DNA from: Schmidtea polychroa
Lineage: Eukaryota
DNA: 64,000 nucleotides
Direction: 5' to 3'
NCBI GenBank assembly: GCA_044892525.1
Contig: CM097885.1
Location: 15,316,001-15,380,000 of the forward strand
Part shown: positions 1 to 53,054 of the stretch, piece by piece
How the letters are laid out: every line of letters starts with the position of its first letter
Position numbering within the stretch: position 1 is the stretch's first letter
Made by a program: the position numbers and the translations under genes
Notes under the pieces: model-generated
Told to the model about the DNA's origin: nothing
Databases searched by the model: none
What the model saw: only the letters and a program-made list of their open reading frames with translations

Positions 1-21783
<21,783 letters not shown>

Positions 21784-28494: not shown

Positions 28495-30376
28495 CACTAG
28501 GACGGCCGGAAATATTTTATACCTTGGAAGGCCAAACCGGTCAATTTGACCGGTGCACATATGCTCCTTATTTTCATGCTGAGATTTCTATGATGCAACT
28601 CATTTAGCAATACTTTCTTTGTGCTACTAACACGCTTTAAAAATTTAACTATTTTTATTCTAACAGTAGTTAATTTATTAAACTACTTACAACAATGAAA
28701 TAAAAATTTTTGTTTAGCTGACACAAAGCTACACTATTTTAAACATTGTCTTTGCGTTTATTCAGACTGGTATGTATGTATACTTCATTTCTTGTTTATA
28801 AATATTCTCTTGCTTTTATTCAAAGATAGTGCTTATTAAAAGTGTAATTAAGCAAGCATTAAAAGTTCTAAGTTTTGAAATTTGGTAAATTAAAAGAATC
28901 AAACGAAAAACTTAACGAAATGTCATAAGACAATATCTAATAATTGTTATAGAAAATCTTTGAACTTCTTGGGATAACAAACATTATAAAACCGTGTTTT
29001 CATTAAAATCCAATAATAAATTTGACGTTTCTTATTTTACTGACGGAGTTTTTATCATTATTTTAGAATCAAATATGCCAACTAAAAGAATTGCTACTCA
29101 ACGTGCTTTACAGAAGCTATGGAATATTGACGCTGCTCTCTCCGAAGATGAAGATCAGCCTATGGGAAGTGATGATGAGCCCGAAAGAAATGATTCTGAC
29201 GAAGAGTTACATGAATGGAACTCTGATGATAATGGAAGTTCGTTAGAAAGTGACAATGAGTCAGTCAATAGCTCAATTTCTTCATTAGAAAATCAGCTTT
29301 TATCTAGCAGGGATGGCACTCTTTGGAATCGAGTAGAAAACAATCACGCTATTAGTGTTGGCAGATTCCCTGCGCACAATATTTTTAGTGGAACACCTGA
29401 TGTGAAAGCTTTTGCAAAGCGCAAAATTGACTCACCCCTGAGCGCTTGGCGCTTGATAGTCTCTGAGGGAATGCTGAAGTTAATTCAAAAATACACAATT
29501 ATGAAAGGAAAAGAAGCTTCGTCAGACTGGTGTATCAGTCTACAAGAATTAGATGCTTTTCTTGGATTGCTGTATCTCCGTGGTGTGTTAGGCTTTCGCC
29601 GACATTCTATCAATTCAATCTGGTCATCTCAATTTGGATCTCCTTACTTCAGAGAAGTCATGTCTCGGAACCGTTTCCGTGAGATACTGCGCTTTCTTCG
29701 TTTTGATGAACAATGTTCTCGACGTCAAAGAGTAGAACAAGATAAATATGCCCATTTTCGTGAAATATTTGACTTGTTTGTTTCAAACTGTCTTCAAGTT
29801 TATACTCCTGAGCTCTCAACGCTCATGTTATTTTCAAAGATGCTACGGGATCAACTATAAAAAGAAGGGATTTTATTTTTGAATTAGCTACATCTCTTTG
29901 TGAGGAGTTCAAAAGCCGTCGAGAGCAAGTCCCATCTCTGGTGAACTCTGTTCTGAACAACCTAAATTAAAGAAGCGAAAAACTTGTTCTGCTCCTCATT
30001 GTGATAACAAATCCGGAGCTATATGCCATGTATGTAGTAAAGTTTACTGTGGAAAACATTCCCAAATGACTGTTAAATGCTTCGGTTGTGTGTAAATTAT
30101 ATTTGGTTTTATATTTTCTAGTATGTAAGATGATTATGTGTGACTTTCTTGTGTTTTTCAAGATACCGGTCAAATTGACCGGTTCGGCCTTCCATGGGGA
30201 TGGCCTCATTATCTCAGTCGTGACAAATGCTATAATTGAAGCTTTGATATGCACAACAAGTTCACTAAAAATGAATAATTGTCACAAAATATGAGACGTT
30301 AATTCCTTTTCGTTTTCTCACAAAATAAAAATGAAATTGCTTAACGGTCAAAATGACCGCTCTGGCCGTCCTAGTG
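28495..30376 (+). mobile_element. Internally deleted piggyBac transposon
   Basis: TTAA TSD; TIR CACTAGGACGGCC; subterminal ACCGGTCAATTTGACCGGT inverted repeats. Confidence 0.92.
29074..30096 (+). pseudogene. piggyBac (PGBD-like) transposase lacking the DDD catalytic core
   Basis: Acidic N-terminus, MSRNRFREILRFLRFD, then a break after YTP (~29810) joined to the C-terminal LNAH..RRDFIFELA and Cys-rich CHVCSKVYCGKH. Confidence 0.85.
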
Positions 30377-36199: not shown

Positions 36200-37040
36200 A
36201 TATGTATTTATATTGCTCATAACCTTGATTTTATAAATTAACCCCTATAATATTCCGTATATAAATATGCGTACTAATATTACTTATATATACTACTCAT
36301 AAAATCGCAAACCTTCTAGAGTCTAGAATTATTATTAAATGTATTATTTATGTATTTATTATGTATAAAATTTACAAATCATTTACGTCTATTAATAAAT
36401 ATATTAATTATATATACATTACTCACAAAATTCATAGATCATCTACGACTACTACTGAATATATTACTATATATATATTTTACTTATAAAATTTACAAAT
36501 CAATATAATCATTATATATACCCTGCTTGTAAAACTCATAAATCCTCTATGACTATTAATAAATGTATTACTATATATATTACTTATAACATTTATAAAT
36601 CCTTTATATCTATTAATAAATCTATTAGTTATATATACATTGCCTATAAAGTCTATCAATCATCTATAACTATTAATAAATATAGTAATTAGATATACAC
36701 TACTTACAAGGCTTATAAATCATCTATGATTACTAATCAATAGACTACTCATGAATACATTACTTATAAAATTTATAAATCTTCTATAACTATTTATAAA
36801 TATATATACACTACTGATAAGGCTTATCAGTCAATATATCACTTAGGTATGCATTATTTATAAATATTATAAGTCATCAATAATTACTAATAAATACATT
36901 TCTTATATATGCATTACTTATAAAGTTTATAAATCACCTATAACTATATTATCTATATGTTGCTTATAAGGTTTATAACTCGTCTATGACTATTTGATAA
37001 ATATATTAGTTATATACATGTTACTTACAAAATTTAGGAA
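36200..37040. repeat. Diverged ~60-bp AT-rich tandem repeat
   Basis: Recurring TACTTATAAAATTTATAAATC.TCTAT.ACTATTAATAAAT..ATTA.TTATATATACAT. Confidence 0.75.
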
Positions 37041-37462
37041 AAATTCCCTATAATAACCATACCCAATGATCTGTATTAATACTATTCAAATATACTACCA
37101 GTCAAATCACCTATTTAAGATGAAAATTTATAATTAATAATTTTTCCCAGTTCCTGGTTGCAATATAAAAATGAAAAGGTAAAAATTTATCTTCCAATTT
37201 CCTTTACTCAGAATACAAGTTGTCAAATCATTTTAAATTTGCACGTATGAGTTACAATATCAAGATTATAATATACGAATCATTTTAACTTGACATGTAT
37301 AAATTACGATACCAGTACAATTACAAAGTAAGAACGAAAAGTTAAAGGAAAAATCATTTTCCAATTTCATTTATTCGAAATACAAATTTACTGGAGCAAT
37401 TTACACTTAATAACTTCTCTCTAAAGTCCAATTCCCCCAGTTATAGTTGATTGAAGGACACA

Positions 37463-38405
37463 AGTAGTGTGGTTATATACCCAACCAAAACAGCCCCCCA
37501 ACAAAAACATGCCTCCAAATCACTTAAGCTATTAGAAAAACAACCTAAAACTTATACTTTTATAGTATTTTAACCCTATATTTTGAAAACAACCACCCTT
37601 AATGACTCTAACTGTTTTAATCTTCAAAGCCTCAAACTCAATAGCTTCAAACTAAAAAGAGAATAGAAAAGAAAATGGCATTATGAAAAAGTTAGAGGGC
37701 TATTTGATCTTTATCAGATTATTGATTTTAAATTATATAAATTAAAAAATAAATGAAAAATAGTAAAACTGCTCTGAGGGGACAGTGGTATTTTTTTTTT
37801 TTTTTTTCACTGTCCCCTCAACAGTTTTTTTTGATCCGGATCATTTTTTTTATTTATCAACCTCTTTCGTTTATCGAATCTCTTCCAATATACAAGCTGG
37901 CCAGACTCATACATCAGAATCAATCCGATAATAGCAGCACACCTTATTATTCGCTTCTCGCTCGAATACGATTTCATCGGCGTTTTAAGTGTGCTGCTCG
38001 AAAGTACAAATGAATTCGAAAGCGAATTCGAAAGAGGTCCGAAAACAACTGAGAAATAAATGTGCACATTAAAGAATCGATCCGAGGGTGTTCGAAAGAC
38101 AGGTGGCGATAATTACCGGTTCGCCACCATCACCCGTTTCAATATTTTTTTTTTCATATTTATGTTTAAAAAATAATTAATTAATAAAAAAATAAAATAA
38201 AATAAAATAAATAAAATAAAATATACAAGTACTTTATAAATATAAGATACCCACACTATTTTCAATATTATTTTCAAATTTTTAATATTATTTTATTTTG
38301 AAAAAAAAACTAACCTCAGATGTGATTTGAACCGCTAGCATTTTGAACCACTGTGTCAGTCTAGCCCACTGCGCCATCAAGGTTTGGATTTTTTGTCATT
38401 TTTTA
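37463..38405 (+). repeat. Polinton left TIR
   Basis: Reverse complement of 51123-52054; the outer ~800 bp are near-identical, the inner ~130 bp diverged. Confidence 0.95.
38301..38385 (-). ncRNA. Putative Pol III tRNA-like unit (left-TIR copy)
   Basis: A box TGGCGCAGTGG (38376-38366), B box GGTTCAAATCA (38333-38323), T9 run (38309-38301). Confidence 0.5.
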
Positions 38406-38450
38406 AATTTTTATTATAAAAAATGAATAATATAAATCTTAAAAAATAAA

Positions 38451-41400
38451 ATGAAAACAGGGTATCCAATAAAAAATTTTTTTCTAAAAATGAATTGTAA
38501 TATTTGCAATAAAGTTTTTAAAAATAAAACTGGATTAATTTCTCACTTAAAATCGAAAGCTCATTTATTAAAAGAAAATAATCTTAATGATACAAATTCA
38601 AAAGTTTGTCCTAAATGTAAAGGAAGATTTCTACATTCTGGATATAATAAACATTTTGAAAATTGTATCGGGAAAAATAGAGAAATATTTACAAGTCCTC
38701 ATTGTAACTTTTCAACAAAACTAAATTTCTATTATTTAGAACATATAAAAGAATGTAAAAATAAAAAACAAAATTCTGACGATGAGGAATGTCATTCAGA
38801 AGGAGAGCCTGATCATGTTGAAAGAGAAAAATATAACTGGGATAATTTTAATCATATAGATGAATTTCAATTAAAAATTAATGGGCCTGCAACTCCTGGA
38901 GAATATATAAATAAAAATAAAAAAAATATTAAAAATTCTTTCACTGAAGCTTTAAAAAATTATAAACCGACAAGGTATAATGTTATAAAATATAAAATTA
39001 TAATCAAAGCAAAATACTGGCGAGGAGCAGAAGAAAAGACAACACCCTTAGATGTTGAAATTGGAATACCTTTTAAATATTTATTTTCAATTAAAGGATT
39101 TGATAAAACCATCAAAGAAATAATTAAAGCAGCAGAAGCAAAACAAGAGGAAGTAGAAAATGAATTAGGAGATTCAAACTTAGTATTCAACTCTTTCCAA
39201 ACTTTAGTGATTGATTATTGGAGAGGATTACCACCCAATCCTAAATCTTATATTCCTACACCCTTTAAATCTAAAAATGTTATAAATGTACAGAATAATG
39301 ATAACAAATGTTTCATCTGGTCAATACTTGCACATTTACATCCTCAAGCAACAAATCCCCAAAGAGTTTCAAAATACAAACAATATGAAAATGAATTAAT
39401 ATTTCCCAAAGGATTCAAACACCCAATGAAACTAGAAGACATTCCAGAATTTGAAAAATTAAATAATCTTAAACTTAATATTTATGAACATGTTATAGGG
39501 AAAGAAATTATTCCAATTTATATTTCAGATAGTGGAACCAAGGATAACGGAGCACAGGACAACGAGATATATCTTTTAATCTTGGAACAAGAAAATAATC
39601 AACATTATGTTTTAATAAAATACTTTCAAGCTTTTACATCTCCAGAGAATCCAACTAGTGGAGGAGGAACATGTAAAAGATGTCTTCATTATTCAACAAC
39701 TAAAAACTCTATGATTAAACATACAAGATTTTGTGAAAAAGATGATCCAGCTTTAATTAAAATGCCTAATAGTCCCAAGATGTATTTTAAAAACTTTTCA
39801 AATTTACTACAAACAGTTGGAGTTCTTTATGGTGACTTTGAATCTATAAACCATAAACAAGATTTGGTTTATCAATATTTAAAAATAATAGAAAAAAATA
39901 AACTCATGGATTTATGGAACTCCTCAGGAGAGAAGATGAAACCAGAGAGGATGAAAGCCTTTCTAAGAAAAAGAAATAAACCTAATAGTGTTAAAAAAAC
40001 TAAACAATTACCATCTGCTTATAAATTATTATTTAAAAGTAATTATCCTGAACTCATAGAATCTAGAGAATATTCAATTCTAGGAGGTACCCCTGAAGAA
40101 GTCTTGAATCATTTTACTAAAAATATAAATGATCTAGAACATGAAATATTTAAAATATTAAAAACAAAGTATCCTCAAAATATTTCTAATCAACAACAAC
40201 AAGAATATGAAAATACTTCCAACTGTTGGATGTGTAAACAGAATATTCTTCCTGATGAAAAAGTTATAGATCATGATCATTTAAAAAAGGAAAATAATTA
40301 TCGAGGAGCAGCTCATAAAAATTGCAATCTTAATTGCCATACTCCTAAATTTATACCTGTTATATTTCATAATCTTTTTGGATATGACATACATCTATTT
40401 ATTAAACATTTAGCAGCAAATGCTAAAAACTCTTTCAAAGTTATCGGCTTAACAAAGGAAAAATATAAATCAATTGAATATGGAAAATTAAAATTTATAG
40501 ACTCGTTAAACTTTCTCCAAATGTCTTTAGATGCAGTAGCAAAAACAATGAAACCAGAAAATTTTAAAATCACTCGAGAATTCTTGGAAAAAAATAATAT
40601 TCCTCTAGAAGAATATCCTACATGTTTAGCAAAAGGAATATATCCTTATGACTATGTTGACTCGTTTGAAAGATATAATGAAACAAGTCTTCCTAGCCAA
40701 GAAGATTTCTATTCACAACTTCAAAAAAATCATATTACAAATCAAGAATATTCTCGAGCAAATAAAATGTGGGAATTATTCAAGTGTAAAACTTTAGGAG
40801 AATATACAAGTATGTATTTATCCTTGGATGTTTATATTCTAGCAGATTGCTTTGAAGAATTTACAAACTCTTTTGTTCTTAAACCTTATAATTATATAAC
40901 TGCACCCTCTTTAGCTTGGGATACTATGTTATATACCATTTGGACTTCAAATATAGAAGATGCTGATAAAATTATAGATCTTTTAACTAACCTCGATATG
41001 TTTAACCAAATTAAAACAAACATTAGAGGAGGAGTCTCTTCAGTAATGGGGAATAGAGAAATAAAAGCTAGAAATGCAATAACTACTAGCCGAAGACTAT
41101 CTAAACACCCTGATGATCCATATATGAAAATTAACAATGAGGAATTAAAAGAATTATTAGAAACAATGAAAAATCCTATATTTATACTTTATATAGATGC
41201 AACAGCTTTATATTCAGGAATTATGACTCAATTTTTACTAATGGGTGATTTCACTGAAATAGAGAACCCAACAGATGACCTTATGAAAGAAATACTTTCA
41301 ACATCGAAAGATTCTCCAATAGGTTACTTTATAGAATGCAACCTCGACTATCCAGATGATATAAAATCAGGAACAAGATATTTTCCTTTAGCTCCCATAA

Positions 41401-42770
41401 GAAGAAAGATTGATATCAACGAACTTTCTGAATGGCAAATCTCACAAGATAAACCTCCAACAATGAAACTTCTTTGTGATCAAACAGATCGAAGGTTTTA
41501 TCTTTGTCACTATAGACTCCTCCAATTTTATCTCTCACGAGGAATGATATTAAAAAAAGTTCATAGTGTCATAAGATTTAAACAAGCTCCATTCATGAAA
41601 GCTTTTATCGAGGAGAACATTAGGTGTCGAAACATTGCAAAAAGAGAAGGTAATCTTTTTAAAGATAATAATTATAAAATTTTAAACAATTCAGTCTTTG
41701 GGAAGACAATGGAGAATGTTGATAAATATACTCATATTGAACTCCTAACTAATACTGCCAAAGATATTAAGCGTTATAATCGTATGCTAGGAAAGCCTAC
41801 ATTTATAAACGCACAAGTATTTTCTGAAAATCTTACTGCAGTAGAATTAAAAAATTATGAGAAAACATATAACAAACCAATATTTATAGGGTTTACAATT
41901 TTAGAACTTTCAAAATTACAAATGTATGAAACATATTATAACATCTTACAACCTATATACGGAGCAAATATATCAATGCATGCAATGGATACAGATTCAA
42001 TGTTTTTAACAATAAGAACTCATGATTTACAAAAAGATATGAAAGAAAATCCTATACTTTCAAATTTAATAAATTCATCTGGAGAACTATTTTCGTTTAA
42101 AGATGAAAAACCTTTTACTCCTATAGAAAATGGAATATTTATTCGTGCTAAACAATATTCATACGAAACATTTAGAAACCCTGAATTTATAACTAGATCA
42201 TTTATATTTAAAACTCCAGAAACAGAAGAAACCATTACACATAGATATCCTATATTTCCTAAAGAAGAAAAACCTGTAAAGGATAACAGATGTAAAAGAA
42301 TACAGAGAGTGGTTTCAAAGAATCTTTCTCATCAAGATTATATAGATACATTGAATCCAAATCATAAAGATAAAATTGATGAAATACATCAACTTAAAAG
42401 TGAAAACCATGATATTCACTTGATAGAATCTCAAAAAGTATCATTATCAAATTATGATGATAAGAGATTCATACTAAGTGATTTAAAGACAACTCTACCT
42501 ATTGGAAATAATTTAATCCCTATAATAAAAAATCTAGAAAAGTTGAATAAGTTATATGATACAAAGATTACTGATCTTGATATTTATAATGTTGAAATTA
42601 TTTATCCCAAGAGAGAAATCGAGAAGCCTTTATATTCTCAAGTTTTTAATCCTATATGTTTAGAACTTAAATATTTTAATACTGATCCTGAATATATAAA
42701 AGGTCTAAGTGATAAAGAATTTAAAGATCATAAATTAATGATTCAAAGGTTGGCTTTCAACCATAACTGA
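38451..42770 (+). CDS. Protein-primed family B DNA polymerase (pPolB) with N-terminal C2H2 zinc finger; likely start ATG at 38490
   Basis: Exonuclease motifs YGDFES and FHNLFGYDIH; C..C..DHDH..YRGAAH..CNL; KGIYPYDY; YIDATALY; KILNNSVFGKTMEN; MDTDS; YDDKRF. Confidence 0.97.
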   Translation: MKTGYPIKNFFLKMNCNICNKVFKNKTGLISHLKSKAHLLKENNLNDTNSKVCPKCKGRFLHSGYNKHFENCIGKNREIFTSPHCNFSTKLNFYYLEHIKECKNKKQNSDDEECHSEGEPDHVEREKYNWDNFNHIDEFQLKINGPATPGEYINKNKKNIKNSFTEALKNYKPTRYNVIKYKIIIKAKYWRGAEEKTTPLDVEIGIPFKYLFSIKGFDKTIKEIIKAAEAKQEEVENELGDSNLVFNSFQTLVIDYWRGLPPNPKSYIPTPFKSKNVINVQNNDNKCFIWSILAHLHPQATNPQRVSKYKQYENELIFPKGFKHPMKLEDIPEFEKLNNLKLNIYEHVIGKEIIPIYISDSGTKDNGAQDNEIYLLILEQENNQHYVLIKYFQAFTSPENPTSGGGTCKRCLHYSTTKNSMIKHTRFCEKDDPALIKMPNSPKMYFKNFSNLLQTVGVLYGDFESINHKQDLVYQYLKIIEKNKLMDLWNSSGEKMKPERMKAFLRKRNKPNSVKKTKQLPSAYKLLFKSNYPELIESREYSILGGTPEEVLNHFTKNINDLEHEIFKILKTKYPQNISNQQQQEYENTSNCWMCKQNILPDEKVIDHDHLKKENNYRGAAHKNCNLNCHTPKFIPVIFHNLFGYDIHLFIKHLAANAKNSFKVIGLTKEKYKSIEYGKLKFIDSLNFLQMSLDAVAKTMKPENFKITREFLEKNNIPLEEYPTCLAKGIYPYDYVDSFERYNETSLPSQEDFYSQLQKNHITNQEYSRANKMWELFKCKTLGEYTSMYLSLDVYILADCFEEFTNSFVLKPYNYITAPSLAWDTMLYTIWTSNIEDADKIIDLLTNLDMFNQIKTNIRGGVSSVMGNREIKARNAITTSRRLSKHPDDPYMKINNEELKELLETMKNPIFILYIDATALYSGIMTQFLLMGDFTEIENPTDDLMKEILSTSKDSPIGYFIECNLDYPDDIKSGTRYFPLAPIRRKIDINELSEWQISQDKPPTMKLLCDQTDRRFYLCHYRLLQFYLSRGMILKKVHSVIRFKQAPFMKAFIEENIRCRNIAKREGNLFKDNNYKILNNSVFGKTMENVDKYTHIELLTNTAKDIKRYNRMLGKPTFINAQVFSENLTAVELKNYEKTYNKPIFIGFTILELSKLQMYETYYNILQPIYGANISMHAMDTDSMFLTIRTHDLQKDMKENPILSNLINSSGELFSFKDEKPFTPIENGIFIRAKQYSYETFRNPEFITRSFIFKTPETEETITHRYPIFPKEEKPVKDNRCKRIQRVVSKNLSHQDYIDTLNPNHKDKIDEIHQLKSENHDIHLIESQKVSLSNYDDKRFILSDLKTTLPIGNNLIPIIKNLEKLNKLYDTKITDLDIYNVEIIYPKREIEKPLYSQVFNPICLELKYFNTDPEYIKGLSDKEFKDHKLMIQRLAFNHN

Positions 42771-42864
42771 AACCAACGATATTTAATTTTTTAATAATAA
42801 AATGTCGACAATTAATTTAAGCAACTATAGCAACCTGATCTACTTTTTTAAAAATACACCCATT

Positions 42865-43461
42865 TTATAAATAAGAATTCTTTAACCATTTTTCTCGAGA
42901 TGTTTTTTTATTACTTATAACATTAGCCACCATGCCCTCCCTTTTTAATCTTATAACCTCATTCTTTATATCTTGTATTATTTGATTTGATTTCATTATT
43001 TCATCATCAGTTAAGATTCCATCTTCCAAAGCTTTTAATTGAAATAAAAATAATTTAGAGATTCCTAATTCTATTGATAAACAAACTTCTCTATATAAAC
43101 TTTTCTTTTTAGAAGTATAAGATAATGAAACTATTTCAGTTAAGAAACCATCAGCCACAGAAATACTTCCAAGTATTACAGGTGCAAGAGTAACAACTGG
43201 TAAAGTTATGGGTAAAATAACTGTTAATATTGCAGATGCAAATCCTAAAGAATAACCTATAACTTTTAAAACTGTATTCCCTTTATTCCATCTATTTTTA
43301 ATTTTTTTATAATGCTTTAATAAATCTTGTAAATGTAAGGTTTCTGATTTAAATTCTTTTACTCTCATAATTTCAAGTTCTGTGGGAGCCGAGGCCTTGG
43401 AAGAATAATATCCTGATGATCTCAATTCTGGGTAAATTTTTTCTTCTCTTACTTCTTCCAT
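42865..43461 (-). CDS. Polinton hypothetical membrane protein with YPEL and ASAP motifs
   Basis: 198-aa ORF; AAAATG start context; basic helix followed by a long hydrophobic stretch (VLKVIGYSLGFASAILTVILPITLPVVTLAPVILGSI). Confidence 0.8.
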   Translation of the reverse strand: MEEVREEKIYPELRSSGYYSSKASAPTELEIMRVKEFKSETLHLQDLLKHYKKIKNRWNKGNTVLKVIGYSLGFASAILTVILPITLPVVTLAPVILGSISVADGFLTEIVSLSYTSKKKSLYREVCLSIELGISKLFLFQLKALEDGILTDDEIMKSNQIIQDIKNEVIRLKREGMVANVISNKKTSREKWLKNSYL

Positions 43462-43469
43462 TTTAATAA

Positions 43470-44480
43470 TTAAAAAAATAAGACTTTATTCTTCTGAGCA
43501 TCATCTGGCACCAATACTCGGATATCAAAAGAAACTCTTGTTGAGAGGATATCTTTATACAATTCTCTCAATGCTTTACGAACTTCATCAACATCAACCT
43601 TTTTTTCATAAAATATTAAATCTATATATTGTACAAGTGAACTAGAAAAATGAATATTCTTACTTTTAACTTTATGTAGTCCATGTGAATGAGTATTAAC
43701 ATACCAATCTCCGTGTGGTAAATCATAACTAGTCATTATAACATCACCCTTTTCAAGCTTACTATTATAATCACATTTCACAAACCATTTCATTCTTTCA
43801 TTATCATCATCAAACAAAAAGAAATAAGGATCAATAATTTTTACAACCATAAAAACACCCCATTCTTTACTGTTTGTTGTTATTAAACTTGGTTCTATAA
43901 AATGTTTATATGTATGGGGTAATAATGTTTTATTCTGTTCTAATTCAGCAGCTCTTTTTCTAATACTATGTGTGGTGTTAATGTGTGTTCCATGAGACTC
44001 TAAATTTGAAATTCTTTTATTAAATGATGTAATCATCTCATTTATTATTTTATATATTGTATTAAATTTAGTATTCATAATTTGTTTATCTTTAGAATTT
44101 AATATAGCAGTATTTAACTTTACAACTTGTTCAGTTAACAGACTTTGTAACTTGTCAAATTTATCATTAAATCGTTGTTCGATATTATTAAGCTTTGATT
44201 CCATTGAATCAATTTTTGTTGTTAATGAACTTTCAATTCTTGTTGTTGTTAAATCAGTATATTTTTTAACACCATCTACATATTTCTTATTAACTGCATC
44301 AGCTTCATCAGTTGGAAAAGATAATTCTTTTATCTTGTGTCCATTTAAAATTAAATCACCCTTCATTGAATCACCTCTTTCATTAATATATTTATTTTCT
44401 GTTAAAGTTAATATTTCTTCTGTATTAAACCCTGTTTTTATTGTTCCACCACCTCTATTACATGGAATATAAGAACTCAT
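43470..44480 (-). CDS. Fibre/spike-like protein
   Basis: GDSMKGDLILNGHKIKELSFPTDEADAVNKKYVD fibre-type motif, long coiled-coil, globular C-terminus; adjacent to mCP. Confidence 0.7.
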   Translation of the reverse strand: MSSYIPCNRGGGTIKTGFNTEEILTLTENKYINERGDSMKGDLILNGHKIKELSFPTDEADAVNKKYVDGVKKYTDLTTTRIESSLTTKIDSMESKLNNIEQRFNDKFDKLQSLLTEQVVKLNTAILNSKDKQIMNTKFNTIYKIINEMITSFNKRISNLESHGTHINTTHSIRKRAAELEQNKTLLPHTYKHFIEPSLITTNSKEWGVFMVVKIIDPYFFLFDDDNERMKWFVKCDYNSKLEKGDVIMTSYDLPHGDWYVNTHSHGLHKVKSKNIHFSSSLVQYIDLIFYEKKVDVDEVRKALRELYKDILSTRVSFDIRVLVPDDAQKNKVLFF

Positions 44481-44504
44481 TTATTAATAATATAAAATGA
44501 ATCT

Positions 44505-45269
44505 TCAAACCTGTTCCAAATGTAAATACATTGAAATCTCTTCTCCATTAAAATCAATCAATTCTCCTTCTTGATTAAGAATTTTAAAATTAATATCCAT
44601 TATATATTTTCTACATAAAGGTAAATAATTTGGAGGATTCATTCTTTCAACTATTTTATATCCCATAGGAACTGTGTTTGAGGGAAAGGAATATAAAACA
44701 TTTGTTTGTTTACCATTATTATAAGAACCTGTTATACAATCGCAATGAATATTTATTGTGTTTGTATTTATTATTTTTATAATATGTTCTGATGTTATTA
44801 TTTTATCTTCTTTTATTGTTATATCCATAGGTTTAAATCCTAAAACTGTGTGAAAGAAACAATTATCTAAAAAACTAATTTTTATATTCTTCAAAGTCAT
44901 TACACATTTTGAAGTTGGTATATCCATTTTAATTTTAATACCTTCATTTGTTTTTTTAGAAAGTATATCATTTAAATCTTTTATCTCATATGCCCCAGGT
45001 TCTATTGTTATAATTTCTGGTTTATGCCCATCACGAGTTTGAATAGTAAATTTATTATTATCTTTAGTTATATTAAAAATAGTATTATAAGCACAAAACC
45101 ATAATAGCCCCAATTCATAATTTAAATTTTGATCTAATTTAATTGAATCTTGAAAGTTTATAGTAAAGTCTGATTCTTTTGAATTTATAGATAAAGTTCT
45201 TGAATATTTATCTGACATTATGTTTACCATTTTTTTTAAATTATCTTCCGGAGGGTTGTGAAGCTCCAT
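44505..45269 (-). CDS. Minor capsid protein (penton, single jelly-roll)
   Basis: IEPGAYEIKDLN, INIHCDCITGSYNNG..NVLYSF, YLPL, ILNQEGELIDFNGE. Confidence 0.88.
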   Translation of the reverse strand: MELHNPPEDNLKKMVNIMSDKYSRTLSINSKESDFTINFQDSIKLDQNLNYELGLLWFCAYNTIFNITKDNNKFTIQTRDGHKPEIITIEPGAYEIKDLNDILSKKTNEGIKIKMDIPTSKCVMTLKNIKISFLDNCFFHTVLGFKPMDITIKEDKIITSEHIIKIINTNTINIHCDCITGSYNNGKQTNVLYSFPSNTVPMGYKIVERMNPPNYLPLCRKYIMDINFKILNQEGELIDFNGEEISMYLHLEQV

Positions 45270-45317
45270 TTCTTTAGTAGTAAATTCATATAGTAAAAAT
45301 CCTTATAGTAAAAATCC

Positions 45318-45782
45318 TTATAGTAGAGATTCTAGATCATTAAAAATTTCTTGAATTATAGATTCAAAATCCTGCGTATGCCCCTTTCCCTCTCCCTTAT
45401 TCAATCTATACAAAACATATAAACTTAAAATACCACATATTTTAGTATTCAAAGGTTGAACTTGTAAAGAGTTAAAAGTATAACCATTTGGGGAATCAAT
45501 CGGAGAACCCGTCAAGAGATAATCTTCAACTTCTTTAGTAGGTTTAATCCCAAAAGAATCAAAGTAGATAGATTTCTTATATATACAAACCCAATGAGAT
45601 CCTTTTTCATTTGAATTTTGATAATTGATTATTATATTCAGGGGACTCTCCAGACTTGATAATTCATCATTCATTAATATTTTAATTTTTAAATTTAAAT
45701 AATTTGCATAATCTTTTAAATCAAAATTTGTTTTTGCATTTATTCCAAATGTTTTTAAAAAATCTAATATTGAAGGAGTCAT
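45318..45782 (-). CDS. Adenain-like cysteine maturation protease
   Basis: GSHWVC, YFDSFG, QVQ...ICG (His-Asp-Gln-Cys catalytic order). Confidence 0.93.
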   Translation of the reverse strand: MTPSILDFLKTFGINAKTNFDLKDYANYLNLKIKILMNDELSSLESPLNIIINYQNSNEKGSHWVCIYKKSIYFDSFGIKPTKEVEDYLLTGSPIDSPNGYTFNSLQVQPLNTKICGILSLYVLYRLNKGEGKGHTQDFESIIQEIFNDLESLL

Positions 45783-45804
45783 TTTGTATTTTAAAACTTC
45801 GTAT

Positions 45805-46698
45805 TTATAACTTCGTATACTTATTAAATTTATCTTTTGAAATTATTCCTTGTTTTAACAAATCTTTAGAAATCTTTAAAATATCAGAATCTAAATTATT
45901 ATGTCCTGCTTTCCTTGCAGCTAATAGTTTTCTTAATTCAATAAAAAGATTGATGGGATTTGGTTTACCACCTTCACTAATTAATCCCTCTCCCTCTGTA
46001 ACAACATAACCCTTTTCATTTTTATTTAAATAATTCTTTAAATCTTGAATATATTTTGCTTTAGAACTAGCTCTTATTAATTTTATTAAATTTAAATATT
46101 TTTTAATTTCTTCAACATCATCTGAAGAATATCCACAAAGTAATCTATAAAAATCATCTGTAAATTCAAAGTCTAAATATTCATTATTATAAACATTTTG
46201 TGAATGAATACGTGATTTATTTTCTGAATTTGAATATAAAGTAAAGTTTTGTTTATTAATTGTTATTATTTGATATCCTTCAGTATTAGTATTAAATGTG
46301 GGTCTAATTGAAGGAGGTAAATCATCTCTAATTTTAGGATCAACTTTAAGAGCTTTTGTTTTTAAAAACATTTCTTCTTCTTCCACATTAGAAATTCTTC
46401 TGCGTTTTCTTTGATTTCTTTCAGAATGACTTTCAGGATGGTTTTCACTGGATTCTTTTTCTTTATCCTGCCACTCTAGTTCTTTTATTTTTTGTTTTTT
46501 ATCTTCTAACTCTTTAAATTTTGCTTGCTCATTGAAATCTTCCAACTCTTTTATAGCTTTAATTGTTGGCCCCTGTTGTTGTGTTATTACCTCATTTAAT
46601 ATTATAGATTCAGCATGTTGAGTTGTATCTTTTTTATTATATTTATCTTGTTCTGATTGTAATTTTTTTAAAAGTGCTAATCTTTCTTCATATACCAT
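45805..46698 (-). CDS. Conserved Polinton protein of unknown function (possible core protein)
   Basis: C-terminal GEGL..PINLFIELRKLLAARKAGHN..I..I..DL...GII resembles a motif recurrent in Polinton proteins; NLS-like QRKRRR. Confidence 0.8.
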   Translation of the reverse strand: MVYEERLALLKKLQSEQDKYNKKDTTQHAESIILNEVITQQQGPTIKAIKELEDFNEQAKFKELEDKKQKIKELEWQDKEKESSENHPESHSERNQRKRRRISNVEEEEMFLKTKALKVDPKIRDDLPPSIRPTFNTNTEGYQIITINKQNFTLYSNSENKSRIHSQNVYNNEYLDFEFTDDFYRLLCGYSSDDVEEIKKYLNLIKLIRASSKAKYIQDLKNYLNKNEKGYVVTEGEGLISEGGKPNPINLFIELRKLLAARKAGHNNLDSDILKISKDLLKQGIISKDKFNKYTKL

Positions 46699-46720
46699 TT
46701 TAATGGTATCAAAAATGGTA

Positions 46721-47299
46721 TCATAGTTCGAAGGGCTTCAAGTATAATCCTTTACCATTTTTAGTTTTACAAAGGCATCCATTCTTTAAAGATTTACATA
46801 TTTTTTTTAAATCTTCTTTATCTTTCGAAGATAAAGATTCAGATGTAGAAATTTGATTTTTTAAAAAATCATTTAAACCTCTACCTTTATAAGGATCAAG
46901 ATAGAGACCTTTGCCCTGAGACTTTTGCCGACTCCCCTCATATGGATTAAGATAGAGACCCTTTCCAACGGACACTCCCCCTTTAGCTTGCCCTACCTTC
47001 TTCATTGAATCGATTTCAGTTTGTAGTTTTTCTTTTTCTAGGTCTGTCTTTTGAGATTCTTTAGCTTTTTGAACTGTAGTTGCAATTCCTCCAGCTATTC
47101 CAGCAGCACCTGATAAACCAGCAATGATTGCAGGTATTAAAGCAGCTAATGGAAGAATGCCACCTTCTTTAGCTTCGTGGAGCTTCGCTCTAACTTGTTC
47201 TTTTACATGTTTTCCAATAAAATATTTTTTACCATCAATTACTACTGATTTATTTTTATTTGAATTTATTAATTCTTGCAAAGATTCTTCAGTTGTCAT
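46721..47299 (-). CDS. Adenovirus pX/mu-like virion core or membrane-active precursor
   Basis: EGGILPLAALIPAIIAGLSGAAGIA resembles adenovirus pX GGILPLLIPLIAAAIGA; repeated GKGLYL motifs. Confidence 0.8.
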   Translation of the reverse strand: MTTEESLQELINSNKNKSVVIDGKKYFIGKHVKEQVRAKLHEAKEGGILPLAALIPAIIAGLSGAAGIAGGIATTVQKAKESQKTDLEKEKLQTEIDSMKKVGQAKGGVSVGKGLYLNPYEGSRQKSQGKGLYLDPYKGRGLNDFLKNQISTSESLSSKDKEDLKKICKSLKNGCLCKTKNGKGLYLKPFEL

Positions 47300-48106
47300 T
47301 TTATAATAAACAAAATGGATATTTGGAAACCAATTTTAAATAGACATAAGAGTAAATTTAATAATAAAGTATTTCCTGATAATTTTAGATTATTAATTGT
47401 TGGTTCTTCTGGATGTGGAAAGAATGTACTTGTTTTGAGAATGTTACTTGAAGATGATTTTTTAGATTATAATAATTTAATCTTTTATTCTACAACCATA
47501 AATCAACCAGAATTACAACTTTTGAAATGTGGATTTGAAAATAAATTAACTAAAAAACCAATAATTGATATTTTTAAAAATCAACATAGGTGTCCTGAAG
47601 AAGTTTTTCAACCTTGTGATATGGTTGATTGGTATAAGGAAAAGATTTTAGAATCAGATATTAGTAATAAAAATGATTATATTTGTGAAGAAGGGCAGGA
47701 GGCAATTCAAGTTTTATTCTCTAATAAACCTGAAGATGTTTTACATTGTGATTTACTTCCTAAAGATAAAAAGAATCTAGTTATATTTGATGATGTTGTC
47801 AACATGAAAAATCAAGAGATTCAAAAGAGTTACTTTACACGAGGTCGACATAATAATTGTAATGTTATTTATATATCTCAAACATATTATGCTTTAGATA
47901 AAAATTCAATAAGAAATAATTCCAATTGTTTTATATTTTTTAAATTAGATCGCCGTGATAAGAATATGATTTATAATGATTTATTTTCAAATGTTGAACC
48001 TGATAAGAATATGTTTGATATGTTTGTTGATAATCATTGGAAAGAAAAATATAATTATATTTATTTGGATAGAGAAGAAGCTGAAATATGGAAAAGTTTG
48101 TTTTAG
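47276..48106 (+). CDS. A32/FtsK-like DNA packaging ATPase; likely start ATG at 47315
   Basis: Walker A GSSGCGKN, Walker B LVIFDD, RGRHNN, YISQ, IRNN. Confidence 0.93.
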   Translation: MQRFFSCHFIINKMDIWKPILNRHKSKFNNKVFPDNFRLLIVGSSGCGKNVLVLRMLLEDDFLDYNNLIFYSTTINQPELQLLKCGFENKLTKKPIIDIFKNQHRCPEEVFQPCDMVDWYKEKILESDISNKNDYICEEGQEAIQVLFSNKPEDVLHCDLLPKDKKNLVIFDDVVNMKNQEIQKSYFTRGRHNNCNVIYISQTYYALDKNSIRNNSNCFIFFKLDRRDKNMIYNDLFSNVEPDKNMFDMFVDNHWKEKYNYIYLDREEAEIWKSLF

Positions 48107-48117
48107 GGCTTGTCGAC

Positions 48118-49041
48118 TTAAAAATCTGTTTTCTGTAGTTCATTATTATAAAATCTACCTAATATTTTTTCATTATTTAAATCAAAGATGGTATATGTTA
48201 TTGGAGTTGTATGATGTATTTTATTTATAATAAAAATTTCATTTGTCCATTTTGCTGTGAATCCTTTTTCAAATTTATTTTTATATTTAAATATTCTTAC
48301 TCGGTCACCAATTTTAAACTTTGGTTTTTCAATAACATCATTTTCAATATTTACCACTTTAATGGTTTCAGGCTTCATGGAAGCATTTAGAGGTGTTAAT
48401 TTTATAGAACTATGTACATCATTATTATGTTCATTTACAATCTTTTGTAACAATTCATTGTTCCATTTTTGTTTTCCAATAGCAGTAAAATATTTCCACA
48501 TTTTATTTTTTAATGTTCTATTTAATCTTTCAACTACGACTGCTTTTCCTTCGTTTTCTGTTGAATATAATTTAATATCATTTTCATTTAAAAACTTTGT
48601 AAAAACTTTGTTATAAAATTCTGTTCCTTTATCACACCATAAATATTTTGGGATTCTTTGATTTTCTTCAAATATATTTTCAAATGCTTCTGTAATAGAA
48701 TATCCTGTTTTATTTTCTAAACATCTTGCAAAAGCAAATCTTGTATATAAATCTATTACAGTTAAAATTATTATTAGATTATTATTTTCATCTAATCTAA
48801 TATCTAGACGTGTTCCTGGTCCAGTATAGTTGTGTTTAAATAAATGTCTTTCACCTGGATATTTTTCTGTAGTAAAAGGTTTTAATATTGAAGATGTTGT
48901 TTTTAAAGATTGCAAATCGCCTCCAGCTCGTGGAATTAGATCACCTCCTGTATGTTTTTTAGTTTTTAAATGACTTGCTTTATGATGTCTTGTAACTTGA
49001 CAATTACAACTTTCACATCTCCAATATTTATTTAGAGACAT
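48118..49041 (-). CDS. Chimeric ORF: zinc finger + PLA2-like N-terminus fused to a retroviral-type (rve) integrase lacking its first catalytic Asp
   Basis: CESC..H..H; HNYTGPGTRLDIRL; ILTVIDLYTRFAFA, LWCDKGTEF, VVERLNRTLK, KFKIGDRVRI, FYNNELQK. Confidence 0.88.
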   Translation of the reverse strand: MSLNKYWRCESCNCQVTRHHKASHLKTKKHTGGDLIPRAGGDLQSLKTTSSILKPFTTEKYPGERHLFKHNYTGPGTRLDIRLDENNNLIIILTVIDLYTRFAFARCLENKTGYSITEAFENIFEENQRIPKYLWCDKGTEFYNKVFTKFLNENDIKLYSTENEGKAVVVERLNRTLKNKMWKYFTAIGKQKWNNELLQKIVNEHNNDVHSSIKLTPLNASMKPETIKVVNIENDVIEKPKFKIGDRVRIFKYKNKFEKGFTAKWTNEIFIINKIHHTTPITYTIFDLNNEKILGRFYNNELQKTDF

Positions 49042-49070
49042 TTTAAAATGTTAAAATATCAGGGATTATA

Positions 49071-50363
49071 TCAAGAATCTCCCCTAACATTTTCAATTAT
49101 TGAAATCTTTCCACCATATAATTTCATTTCTATTTTCTTTTCTTCTAATATTAATGTATATACTTTAGCTTTAAAATTAGAATCCTTTGTTACATGAAGT
49201 GTAACATCAACATTATTTATGGCTAGGCGATCATCTTGGTCTGAAACATTTATACAAAATATAGAATATAAATTTTTGAAATCTTCTAAACTTAATTGCG
49301 GTTCAACTTTGAAATCATAACATGTTTCAATATAATTTAGATATGGGAATATGTTTTCATTATTTTCAATATTAAATTCCATTCTATTTATTGGATAATA
49401 AGAACTATTTAATTGAATTTGGATTGTTTTTAAATTATCAACTCCAATCTTTTGAATAAACAAGTTGTTATTTTTTTGGAAAGATGAATCTACTTCTTTG
49501 AATCCAATCAAGATATATCTTGGTCGGTATGCTAAATTTGCTACCTTTATAGAATATGTTGAACCCTCTGTCATACTAAATTCACTACAGATTCTATTTA
49601 AATAATTTACATTTATAGACTTGTTGGAATTTAATCTTTCAAGGAGTTTAATCTCAGAATGTGGGTTTAATGTCCATTCAGGTATATGTAATTCAAGTGT
49701 TGATAATTTTAATTTAGCTTTTGTATCTACAGCTCCATAGAACAATTTTTTATCACCTTCTACTCTATTACAGATGAATTCTATAAAAACATTATGAAGT
49801 ATACGATTATAGTTTTGAAGGAATCCAAACAAGTGTTTTAATTCAAAATAACCTTCAAATTTTTTAGATTTATAAAGTTCAGCTCTTTTATGGTAACCAT
49901 GGTTTACATCTAAACCATCTTTATCTAAATCCCCTTTATTAACATCAGGAATCCAACCTGTTAATTCACCATATTCGTTTTTATAATCACAACCAGTCAA
50001 AATAAAATTTAACATTGTAGAATATACTCCCGGATGCAAAACAGTTTCAATTTCTGATGATCCTAGTTTTAATCTCATGTTGGAGAATAAATTTGGAAAG
50101 AAATTATTTTCTAGGGTTATATCTTTGTTTGCTTCAATTTCTAATTCGATTTTATAATATAATTTGGCATTACAAATATCTATAGGGTTTGATGTTTGAA
50201 GAGATTGAAAAACTATATCACCCCTACGATTTAAGTTTGCAATCGATCCTGACGTAGGGGATATTTTAAGTACATCATTTTTCTTGATTTCATGAGTAAA
50301 TTCTTTATTATAATCAAGATTTAATTTATTTTTTTCTTGAATTTTAAGATTTATATTATTCAT
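49071..50363 (-). CDS. Major capsid protein (hexon-like double jelly-roll)
   Basis: 430 aa; NNFFPNLFSNMRLKLGSSEIE, LKHLFGFLQNYNRIL, RPRYILIGF, LNSSYYP, FKNLYSIFCINVS; position within the Polinton. Confidence 0.88.
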   Translation of the reverse strand: MNNINLKIQEKNKLNLDYNKEFTHEIKKNDVLKISPTSGSIANLNRRGDIVFQSLQTSNPIDICNAKLYYKIELEIEANKDITLENNFFPNLFSNMRLKLGSSEIETVLHPGVYSTMLNFILTGCDYKNEYGELTGWIPDVNKGDLDKDGLDVNHGYHKRAELYKSKKFEGYFELKHLFGFLQNYNRILHNVFIEFICNRVEGDKKLFYGAVDTKAKLKLSTLELHIPEWTLNPHSEIKLLERLNSNKSINVNYLNRICSEFSMTEGSTYSIKVANLAYRPRYILIGFKEVDSSFQKNNNLFIQKIGVDNLKTIQIQLNSSYYPINRMEFNIENNENIFPYLNYIETCYDFKVEPQLSLEDFKNLYSIFCINVSDQDDRLAINNVDVTLHVTKDSNFKAKVYTLILEEKKIEMKLYGGKISIIENVRGDS

Positions 50364-50419
50364 TTTTATATATTAAAATTTACACACACACAATAGGATT
50401 AATTAAATATATTTTGTAA

Positions 50420-50501
50420 GTCATTATAGCGGAGTGGGAATAGGCTTCAATTTTATCACCGGGAGTACCGGGTTCAATTTTCGATTTTGGTCAATTTTTT
50501 T
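50420..50501 (+). ncRNA. Putative Pol III tRNA-like unit 1 (degenerate)
   Basis: A box TAGCGGAGTGG at 50427, B-like GGTTCAATTTT at 50471, GGTCA then T7. Confidence 0.4.
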
Positions 50502-50653
50502 CGATATTTTTTTTCAACGGAATCTGATTCAGCGTACTGATTTTAGTATATATTTAAATTTTCAGATGGATCTGAGTGGTAGTTGTCGAGAAAATGAATA
50601 ATTAATTATCAATTTCATCAATAAATAGTCACACATTAACAACTTATTTTATA

Positions 50654-50735
50654 TTGAGTATAGCTTAGTGGTAATAGCACTCGACTGCATTGCCAATACC
50701 AATGGGTTCAAATCCCATTTCGGTCATTTTATTTT
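50654..50735 (+). ncRNA. Putative Pol III tRNA-Cys-like unit 2
   Basis: GTATAGCTTAGTGGTAATAGCACTCGACTGCA resembles the tRNA-Cys 5' half; perfect T-arm AATGGG-TTCAAAT-CCCATT; TTTT terminator; acceptor and anticodon stems do not pair. Confidence 0.6.
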
Positions 50736-50896
50736 CAAATTTTTTTTAACGAAATATTGATCAGCATACTCGATTTAGTACTTGTACAAATTTTTAATGA
50801 GATTGGTCAACGGCAACTCTTGGAAATTTAAGATCAAAAACGTTTTAACTTAAGCTACCAAAAATTAATATATCCAATAAAAAAATATTTATAAAA

Positions 50897-51166
50897 ATGG
50901 ATGAGTTAAAAGAAAGAATGAGAAATGAATTGAATGAAGTTAAACATAAGAGAATGAAAAGAAGAGAAGAAGAACCATTAGAATACATCAAAGAGTTGAT
51001 GGTAGATAATGAAAAGTATCGACATTTTTATATGAAGGCTGTAGATGTTGCTGATATAAGATTGAAGAAAATGAAACAATTACAGGAAAGAGTTAAAGAA
51101 CTTGAATCGATTATTTATAGTCTAAAAAATGACAAAAATCCAATCCTAGATAGCGCAGTGGGCTAG
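50897..51166 (+). CDS. Small charged coiled-coil Polinton protein (89 aa)
   Basis: AAAAATG context; upstream TATCCAATAAAAAA motif shared with pPolB. Confidence 0.65.
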   Translation: MDELKERMRNELNEVKHKRMKRREEEPLEYIKELMVDNEKYRHFYMKAVDVADIRLKKMKQLQERVKELESIIYSLKNDKNPILDSAVG

Positions 51167-52054
51167 ACCGGCACAGTGGTTCAAATGGATAGCGGTTCAA
51201 ATCCTAACTGTGGTTAGTTTTTTTTTCAACATAAAATAATATTAAAAATTTGAAAATAATAGTGTGGGTATCTTATATTTATAAAGTACTTGTATATTTT
51301 ATTTTATTTATTTTATTTTATTTTATTTTTTTATTAATTAATTATTTTTTAAACATAAATATGAAAAAAAAATATTGAAACGGGTGATGGTGGCGAACCG
51401 GTAATTATCGTCACCTGTCTTTTGAACACCCCCGGATCGATTCTTTAATGTGCACATTTATTTCTCAGTTGTTTTCGGACCTCTTTCGAATTCGCTTTCG
51501 AATTCATTTGTACTTTCGAGCAGCACACTTAAAACGCCGATGAAATCGTATTCGAGCGAGAAGCGAATAATAAGGTGTGCTGCTATTATCGGATTGATTC
51601 TGATGTATGAGTCTGGCCAGCTTGTATATTGGAAGAGATTCGATAAACGAAAGAGGTTGATAAATAAAAAAAATGATCCGGATCAAAAAAAACTGTTGAG
51701 GGGACAGTGAAAAAAAAAAAAAAAAATACCACTGTCCCCTCAGAGCAGTTTTACTATTTTTCATTTATTTTTTAATTTATATAATTTAAAATCAATAATC
51801 TGATAAAGATCAAATAGCCCTCTAACTTTTTCATAATGCCATTTTCTTTTCTATTCTCTTTTTAGTTTGAAGCTTTTGAGTTTGAGGCTTTAAAGATTAA
51901 AACAGTTAGAGTCATTAAGGGTGGTTGTTTTCAAAATATAGGGTTAAAATACTATAAAAGTATAAGTTTTAGGTTGTTTTTCTAATAGCTTAAGTGATTT
52001 GGAGGCATGTTTTTGTTGGGGGGCTGTTTTGGTTGGGTATATAACCACACTACT
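51123..52054 (-). repeat. Polinton right TIR
   Basis: Mirror of the left TIR (paired coordinates sum to 89517 in the outer part). Confidence 0.95.
51144..51226 (+). ncRNA. Putative Pol III tRNA-like unit 3 (right-TIR copy)
   Basis: A box TAGCGCAGTGG at 51151, B box GGTTCAAATCC at 51194, CTAAC/GTTAG hairpin then T9. Confidence 0.55.
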
Positions 52055-53054
52055 GACACAGAAGGTCCAGTTTACATTTGTCCGGTTAGTTTAGATTCCC
52101 TTCTAACCATCGGTATCAAAGTAACATCTTCCAAAGGTTGATATGTGCATATCTTCTACGACGGTTTGTCCGGATAAATCTTCTTGAACTACGATCGGCT
52201 GAAAACAACACATAAAGGTAAATAATAGGAGATCGGTTCAATTACCTGAAATCTTAATGGTAGCAAATGTTCATTAACCATGGACACATAAACAAAATTT
52301 TTTAAAGTTAAAACATTCTCTCAATCTAAAGGTTTATAATAAATGAATAATTTTAAACAAACAGTAAAGTTAAAGCATTCTCTCAATTTAAAGGTTTATC
52401 GTAAATGAATAATTTTAAAGAAACAGAAAAGGAAAATTAATAATGAGAATATAATTATCGAAAATGGTGATCAACGTGATATCTTAAATAAAAATTGTAG
52501 TAATCTATAATGAAAAATTTTAGAATGTCGAATTTGAGTGATCAGAGTGAAGCAGATCAATGCGAGATGACGAATGCACGCCTCCTCTCCAGGCACATTT
52601 GGCACCACATTCACCGATGGAGCCAGGGACGAGACCTGGATTGTTCGAATTGGGTGATCAGGGAAGGCCCCGAGACAAATGCCCGGTGTGGGTGAAGACC
52701 GAGCCGGATAACAATTGGCTCGTCGAGGCCCGAGATCGCACCATGGGGCTTAGATCCGTGCCGTCAGAGCCGGTCGGCCAATAGAGGAGGTAGAAATGGA
52801 GCCGACACCAGCGAAAAAACGGGGCCGACCCCGCAAGAAGGCCCCCCGAAACTGAAATCTCGACGATCTCAGGGAACTGTCTCACATTTTGTTTTGATTT
52901 TATTGATTTTTCGCGACCCCTGACTAACATTTTACTTAATAAACGTCTTGTTTTCTTTTGTTTTGTTTCGTTAATCTGGGTGTTATAATCTTAATAATCG
53001 ACTTTACGGAAAATTATAATCACCCGTAGAACCTTAGGGTTATATCCCTCTCAG

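What the first reader, a model, noticed from the sequence alone, without database searches (positions are those of the whole stretch)
37463..52054. Near-intact endogenous Polinton/adintovirus with a full virion module
Seen: perfect 6-bp TSD, near-identical outer TIRs and eleven ORFs without stops, including MCP, mCP, protease, ATPase, a pX-like and a fibre-like protein. Established: this gene set characterises virion-competent Polintons. Inference: a recent insertion, so intact relatives may exist in this genome.
Basis: partly seen in the sequence, partly recalled or inferred. Interest (0 to 1): 0.7.

Follow-up and report, generated by a model that had tools for sequence, protein, structure and literature searches.

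The report
Integrase-dead Polinton with tRNA-like units
This is a real, young copy of a virus-like jumping element with a full set of capsid genes, but a hidden deletion has disabled its fused phospholipase-integrase gene, and it carries four tRNA-like promoter units that may make small RNAs.

Summary
The element is real: 14,592 bp, perfect 6-bp TSD, (AGT)2//(ACT)2 ends, ~930-bp TIRs, eleven stop-free ORFs. The 430-aa ORF is a double jelly-roll capsid (Pfam) and the 254-aa ORF folds like mavirus/adenovirus penton. 'Near-intact' fails at one gene. The 307-aa integrase ORF lacks ~156 residues, in frame, against a 463-aa relative 93-96% identical on both sides. The missing part holds the PLA2 His-Asp and the first integrase Asp. 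Contigs from three studies continue with extra sequence at exactly that point. This copy is therefore integrase-dead and needs a helper, within a many-copy family. (1) The family's integrase is a PLA2-integrase fusion (76 of 120 listed relatives), with a fixed-position GxG motif between the domains (61 of 74; 7.8 expected), a candidate protease site. (2) Four Pol III A/B-box tRNA-like units lie in the element, none in 49.5 kb of flank. The scan noted such units before in another Polinton end of this genome (e1-7879910). I found neither feature in print. Expression, cleavage and virions are untested. New variant of a known kind.

The parts
37457..37462 (.). Left target-site duplication (GACACA)
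37463..38393 (.). Left TIR, about 930 bp, begins AGTAGT
37763..37830 (+). Strong hairpin with a T-run loop in the TIR (mirror at 51687-51754)
   Evidence: z -5.97, 0 of 200 shuffles as stable
38310..38383 (-). Pol III-type tRNA-like unit U_L (A box at 38376, B box, then T run); points outward, back to back with pPolB
38392..38450 (+). pPolB upstream region: near copy (about 45 nt) of the MCP upstream region and first 7 MCP codons, forming an 8-codon upstream ORF
38451..42770 (+). Protein-primed DNA polymerase B, 1439 aa; vOTU-like Cys/His, Exo I-III and Pol A-C motifs present
   Evidence: Pfam PF03175 E 2.7e-13; motifs, recalled patterns, also seen in relative L002
42865..43461 (-). 198-aa conserved hydrophobic protein, no named family
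   Evidence: no Pfam; Atlas 0.92-0.93 to unnamed clusters; relative in L022
43470..44480 (-). 336-aa fibre-like protein (tail-fibre neck-like motif, coiled coil); weak assignment
   Evidence: full length against P0312 (330 of 336 identical)
44505..45269 (-). Minor capsid protein (penton, single jelly roll), 254 aa
45318..45782 (-). Adenain/Ulp1-type cysteine protease, 154 aa; His63, Asp75, Gln109, Cys116
   Evidence: motifs; relative in L002 hits Peptidase_C5 at E 0.01, below cutoff
45805..46698 (-). 297-aa protein of unknown family
   Evidence: relative in L003
46721..47299 (-). 192-aa pX-like core protein with four GxGL motifs
   Evidence: Adeno_PX E 0.04, below cutoff
47315..48106 (+). A32/FtsK-type packaging ATPase, 263 aa
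   Evidence: Pfam PF04665 E 8.3e-9; Walker A/B
48118..49041 (-). Internally deleted PLA2-integrase fusion, 307 aa; break at about 48772-48777 between residues 87 and 91; lacks PLA2 His-Asp, the GxG junction and the first integrase Asp
49071..50363 (-). Major capsid protein (double jelly roll), 430 aa
   Evidence: Pfam PF21738 E 5e-26; 415 of 430 identical to P0001
50420..50494 (+). Pol III-type tRNA-like unit U1, back to back with MCP; first of two ~234-bp tandem duplicates
50654..50726 (+). Pol III-type tRNA-like unit U2
   Evidence: Rfam tRNA 26.7 bits, E 0.059, below gathering 29
50897..51166 (+). 89-aa ORF; its last codons overlap the A box of U_R
   Evidence: no informative Pfam
51144..51217 (+). 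Pol III-type tRNA-like unit U_R at the inner edge of the right TIR, pointing outward
51378..51665 (+). Strongly folding 288-nt TIR segment, candidate structured RNA or DNA signal (mirrored in left TIR)
   Evidence: z -4.91, 0 of 200 shuffles as stable
51134..52054 (.). Right TIR, ends ACTACT
52055..52060 (.). Right target-site duplication (GACACA)

Best explanation
A recently inserted but defective copy of a many-copy Polinton (Alpha-PolB adintovirus type) family. Shown: integrase-type ends, a polymerase with all motifs, and a full-length capsid, packaging and protease module. Shown: an in-frame deletion that removes both the PLA2 active site and the first integrase Asp. Inferred: this copy cannot integrate by itself. 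It was either placed by an integrase supplied in trans or lost the segment after insertion, but could still supply capsid and polymerase. Inferred for the family: a PLA2-integrase precursor is packaged and cut by the virion protease at a conserved GxG site, freeing PLA2 for membrane entry and integrase for insertion. Inferred: four internal Pol III promoters yield ~75-nt RNAs or act as TFIIIC-bound elements beside the polymerase and capsid promoters.
For: Ends and TSD. Capsid folds. P0042 matches at 46/49 and 140/148 residues on either side of the gap and hits both rve (profile from position 2) and Phospholip_A2_4, while the window protein hits rve only from position 20. Columns invariant in 19 relatives (H101, D102, Y105, D226) fall in the gap; 62 of 72 parsed relatives keep the first Asp. 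Contigs of X1, X3, X5 and X14 (three studies) run on with other letters at 48772/48777. 136,907 X1 contigs were laid, across all identity bands. Fusion in 76 of 120 listed hits (hand count). GxG in 61 of 74, 57 of them at offset 40-56; 7.8 expected. Pol III units: 4 in the element, 0 in 49,458 flank nt, Markov mean 0.03, max 1 of 100.
Against: The GxG motif may simply be the structural end of the PLA2 domain; its P4 residue is mostly Lys, unlike the hydrophobic P4 of adenain sites (recalled). In L001 the PLA2 and integrase parts are separated by a stop, so 3 of 4 loci with both parts are single ORFs. The units do not fold as tRNAs: ARAGORN finds none, and only 1 of 4 folds better than shuffles. 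No such unit in 121,840 nt of 37 more distant loci, though most lack element ends. Contigs of X5 and X14 skip 50374-50861, so U1/U2 are absent from some copies.
Confidence: 0.8

Rival explanations
1. The copy is fully functional, and the 307-aa protein is a natural short integrase isoform.
For: The ORF is open and in frame; the second Asp and the Glu are kept; the other ten ORFs show no large lesion against relatives.
Against: The first Asp of the DDE triad is absent. The junction joins a cut PLA2 start directly to the second core strand. Near-identical copies carry extra sequence there. Staying in frame is a 1-in-3 chance.
Confidence: 0.04
2. The four tRNA-like units are decayed passengers (captured tRNA or SINE heads, duplicated with the TIR and by tandem duplication) without function.
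For: No cloverleaf. U1/U2 are missing in some copies. None in distant relatives. The two TIR units are the most diverged part of the TIR.
Against: Between non-TIR pairs, A boxes match at 8-10 of 11 and B boxes at 8-10 of 10, while spacers match at 36-49% (partly circular, since units were picked by their boxes). All four keep 32-33 nt spacing and a T run. Only 1 of 13 TIR substitutions falls in a box, at the degenerate purine (not significant alone). No copy in the flanks.
Confidence: 0.35
3. The units work as DNA elements: TFIIIC/TFIIIB-bound barriers or activators that keep the back-to-back pPolB and MCP promoters open, rather than through their RNA.
For: U_L starts about 70 nt from the pPolB ATG and U1 about 57 nt from the MCP ATG, both divergent; the two upstream regions share about 45 nt. 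Poor RNA structure fits promoter-only selection.
Against: U2 and U_R have no adjacent divergent gene; terminators are kept, which suggests transcription; copies lacking U1/U2 exist.
Confidence: 0.3
4. The break is an assembly artefact of a collapsed repeat.
For: Very high-copy family; no record bridging the junction was among those listed.
Against: The rest of the copy, its TSD and its TIRs are coherent, and the copy is 99.6% identical to X3 contigs; only the best-supported rows were listed.
Confidence: 0.08

Closest known systems
Polintons/Mavericks (PMC8097293, passages)
   Same: 6-bp TSD, (AGT)2//(ACT)2 ends, TIR within the 46-1,447 bp range, size within 12.7-24.6 kb, pPolB, ATPase, protease, MCP, mCP, integrase
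   Different: Integrase fused to PLA2 in the family and catalytically broken in this copy; four Pol III-type units
Alpha adintoviruses (PMC8502044, sections 3.1 and 3.2 read)
   Same: PF03175-type PolB with OTU-like motifs, adenain, FtsK, hexon, penton, rve integrase, a PLA2-like and a pX-like function
   Different: There PLA2 is joined to pX (PLA2X); here PLA2 is joined to the integrase and pX stands alone
Viral Pol III RNAs: adenovirus VA RNAs (recalled), gammaherpesvirus tRNA-like TMERs and EBERs (search listing and abstracts only)
   Same: Internal A/B-box promoters and T-run terminators in a DNA virus genome
   Different: About 75 nt, no Rfam match at gathering level, no transcript shown

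Membership tests
Polinton/Maverick | TIRs with conserved end motif and 6-bp TSD | tested here: met
   end motif as in PMC8097293
Polinton/Maverick | Protein-primed PolB with Exo and Pol motifs | tested here: met
   PF03175 E 2.7e-13; motifs
Polinton/Maverick | rve-family integrase gene present | tested here: met
   PF00665 38 bits, cutoff 32.6
Polinton/Maverick | [quoted passage not shown] | tested here: met
   PF21738 92 bits, cutoff 27; not folded here
Polinton/Maverick | [quoted passage not shown] | tested here: met
Polinton/Maverick | A32/FtsK packaging ATPase | tested here: met
   PF04665 E 8.3e-9; Walker motifs
Polinton/Maverick | Adenain-type cysteine protease | tested here: inconclusive
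   His-Asp-Gln-Cys motifs in order and synteny, but no profile hit above cutoff
Autonomous (intact) Polinton copy | Complete DDE triad in the integrase | tested here: not met
   first Asp deleted
Autonomous (intact) Polinton copy | Expression and particle formation | not testable with these tools
   no raw RNA reads available
Alpha adintovirus | OTU plus PF03175 PolB | tested here: met
   OTU Cys/His by recalled motif, shared with L002
Alpha adintovirus | PLA2X gene (PLA2 with C-terminal pX) | tested here: not met
   PLA2 is fused to the integrase and pX is separate; accessory trait of the Mayetiola-class module
Alpha adintovirus | Animal host | not tested
   host not identified here; earlier scan notes call it an animal genome
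Type-2 Pol III gene | A box, B box, 30-40 nt spacing, T-run terminator | tested here: met
   4 of 4 units, 0-1 mismatch
Type-2 Pol III gene | Transcription by Pol III | not testable with these tools
   only contigs were available
tRNA gene | Cloverleaf with acceptor stem and anticodon arm | tested here: not met
   ARAGORN 0 genes; best Rfam 26.7 bits, below gathering 29, for 1 of 4

The most novel reading that the evidence does not exclude
A widespread Polinton clade packages a PLA2-integrase polyprotein that its virion protease cuts at a conserved GxG site, so membrane entry and integration come from one precursor, as in retroviral polyprotein processing; and this family also transcribes its own Pol III small RNAs, a counterpart of adenovirus VA RNAs in the lineage thought close to adenovirus ancestry.
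Probability: 0.25. Interest if true: 0.75.

Novelty: new variant of a known kind. Interest (0 to 1): 0.47.

Why it matters
Whether animal Polintons make infectious particles is open. An integrase physically tied to an entry phospholipase, kept across many divergent relatives, makes most sense if the integrase travels inside a particle into a new cell, and it gives a simple biochemical test. Pol III units would add a small-RNA layer not found in print for Polintons in my searches. The case also shows that counting stop-free ORFs overstates intactness: an in-frame deletion passes such a filter.

Tried and rejected
No whole genome is held, so copy number was not measured. Single-sequence AF2 of the 254-aa ORF failed (pLDDT 36.9); it worked with a 121-sequence alignment. 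PDB sequence searches gave nothing for the MCP profile and nothing relevant for the protease. Viral-contig scans: no relative, no match for a TIR-unit pattern, 2 loci (L036 a true relative, L037 weak). No RNA holder listed. Run X14 is only guessed to be RNA and also covers the flank, so it was not used for expression. Summed contig depth was not read as copy number. The X1 joint 50370 to 51123 was not counted as a variant: left-end contigs could be mis-laid there because the pPolB upstream region copies the MCP start. An 88-residue extra in the L002 polymerase was rejected as a second deletion: X1 record 1 spans that place without a gap. A short exact match between L022 and the TIR unit spacer was judged chance by a rough estimate. 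Rfam and ARAGORN found no tRNA in related loci (8 loci; 35 loci), but few hold element ends. Atlas hits for the 336-aa protein were under 0.9. No TBP-like ORF was seen among the 11 ORFs, unlike the family in earlier notes. Earlier-finding look-ups by sequence and place gave nothing.
Full report
Observation. The element spans 37463-52054 (14,592 bp). GACACA flanks both ends, and the termini read AGTAGT and ACTACT, the commonest end motif given in PMC8097293 (passages). The TIRs run about 930 bp. Their outer 834 nt differ by 5 substitutions and 2 gaps; the inner ~90 nt differ by 13 substitutions. Eleven stop-free ORFs cover 11,910 nt. No whole genome is held.

Gene assignments. pPolB hits PF03175 (E 2.7e-13), the ATPase PF04665 (E 8.3e-9), the 430-aa ORF PF21738 (E 5e-26) and the 307-aa ORF rve (E 2.1e-9). 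The 254-aa ORF had no Pfam hit. It has 1,327 relatives at E up to 0.001; with 120 of the 150 listed as alignment (longer and partial ones left out) AF2 gave pLDDT 93.5. Foldseek ranked mavirus penton first (E 5e-11), then adenovirus penton bases. VIA-align ranked mavirus, PBCV-1, Sputnik and aviadenovirus chains at Z 11.7-13.6, above unrelated rows at Z 6.8 or less. The protease rests on His-Asp-Gln-Cys motifs and synteny; pX-like and fibre-like labels are weak. Polymerase motifs are all present (patterns recalled). Apart from the integrase, pairwise comparison with relatives showed no large lesion; the one candidate, in pPolB, is spanned without a gap by an X1 contig.

The hidden lesion. The best relative of the 307-aa ORF is P0042, 463 aa, 5 members. 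It matches at 46/49 residues before and 140/148 after a gap; 3 window residues stand against 159, a net loss of 156. P0042 hits rve from profile position 2 and Phospholip_A2_4; the window protein hits rve only from position 20 and no PLA2. Columns invariant in 19 relatives, including the PLA2 His-Asp and the first integrase Asp, lie in the gap; 62 of 72 parsed relatives keep that Asp. In one search (4 of 24 listed runs laid, all contigs), records end with other letters at 48772 or 48777 in X1 (52), X5 (7), X3 (two long contigs) and X14 (1), from three studies; X1 may be the source sample. Seven long X3 contigs differ from the window at 32 of 7,806 nt. So close relatives carry the segment and this copy does not. 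X1 laid 136,907 contigs over all identity bands, which fits a large, diverse family, but gives no copy number.

The family's fusion protein. 76 of the 120 listed hits carry both PF00665 and PF08398 (hand count; 2,953 hits in all, search limited to 168-538 aa). In fetched loci, L003, L021 and L036 hold both parts in one frame without a stop; L001 has a stop between them. Of 74 proteins that parsed, 61 have a GxG motif between the domains, 57 at offset 40-56 after the His-Asp motif, against 7.8 expected from shuffles; 46 of the 120 were dropped as lacking a parsed PLA2 or first Asp. The pX-like protein has four GxGL motifs. Adenain cuts at Gly-containing sites (recalled; PMC8537868 passages, did not give the consensus). 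I infer a precursor cut at maturation. The motif may instead only end the PLA2 fold. In print, Polinton PLA2 appears as a separate gene or as PLA2X (PMC8502044 sections 3.1-3.2; PMC4642659, PMC3671162, PMC5803895 passages). PMC4642659 proposes that such lipases are packaged for entry. Searches and word finds showed no integrase fusion. The PMC8502044 supplement was held cut, with one PLA2X row; its maps may show more. The library lacks most subscription papers and Repbase.

Pol III-type units. A strict scan (A box, B box, 25-45 nt spacing) found 4 units in the element, all followed by T runs, none in 49,458 nt of flank; Markov controls gave mean 0.03, maximum 1 in 100 (a looser scan gave mean 0.21, 0 of 300 reaching 4). 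Two sit at the inner TIR edges pointing outward; two form a diverged ~234-bp tandem pair upstream of MCP (score 129 against shuffle maximum 58). Boxes are conserved and spacers are not, with the caveat that the units were chosen by their boxes. They are not tRNA genes. Against a general role: none in 37 distant loci, 121,840 nt, although most of these are coding fragments without ends, and some copies lack U1/U2. I noted the units, before looking at earlier notes; the scan had reported such units in another Polinton end of this genome (e1-7879910), which is not independent support, and a sequence look-up with this TIR found no look-alike. Searches (listings and abstract starts) showed no paper on Pol III units in Polintons.

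Mechanism. Shown: ends made by an rve integrase; complete replication and virion genes; a broken PLA2-integrase. Inferred: the copy is non-autonomous for integration, moved in trans or damaged after insertion. Inferred for the family: protein-primed replication, packaging by the ATPase, maturation by the protease, entry aided by PLA2, integration by the co-packaged integrase (the first three from PMC11161782 and PMC8502044 passages). For the Pol III units I put decay at 0.35, a DNA-level role at 0.3 and a functional RNA at about 0.35.

Verdict. A member of the Polinton/Alpha-adintovirus kind, not an intact one. Intact Mavericks are already known in numbers (134 in 17 vertebrates), so the headline claim is ordinary and partly wrong. 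The PLA2-integrase fusion with a conserved junction and the Pol III units make the family a new variant worth testing. Interest 0.47.

Noticed in passing
window 38392-38450 and 50340-50385: The pPolB upstream region is an inverted near copy of the MCP upstream region and first 7 codons, leaving an 8-codon upstream ORF that stops just before the pPolB ATG; perhaps a relic of longer TIRs or a shared promoter.
   Followed up: partly
window 50374-50861: Contigs of X5 and X14 skip this 486-nt cassette (U1 and U2), leaving MCP head to head with the 89-aa ORF.
   Followed up: partly
window 45011-45048: Loose ends in X1 and X5 on both sides of this stretch of the penton gene suggest a replaced, variable loop among copies.
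   Followed up: no
window 51461-51943: Summed contig depth over the TIR is about ten times that of the interior in X14 and about three times in X3; may reflect TIR-bearing derivatives, but depth is no copy number.
   Followed up: no
window 51378-51665 and 51687-51754 (mirrored in left TIR): Strongly folding segment (z -4.9) followed by a hairpin (z -6.0); candidate longer RNA or replication signal.
   Followed up: partly
L002 4520-4700 and 5436-5515: In a relative, non-coding DNA upstream of pPolB holds a ~114-bp tandem duplicate and a long imperfect hairpin (Rfam mir-754 48.6 bits, below gathering 84).
   Followed up: no
window 22781-23194, 28964-29860, 58267-60525: Other transposon-like frames in the flanks (Tc1-like, piggyBac-like, and a 752-aa transposase-like ORF); names recalled from motifs, not searched.
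   Followed up: no
window 545-1350 and 36330-37080: A 31-bp tandem array and a ~60-bp degenerate array, the latter just left of the element.
   Followed up: no
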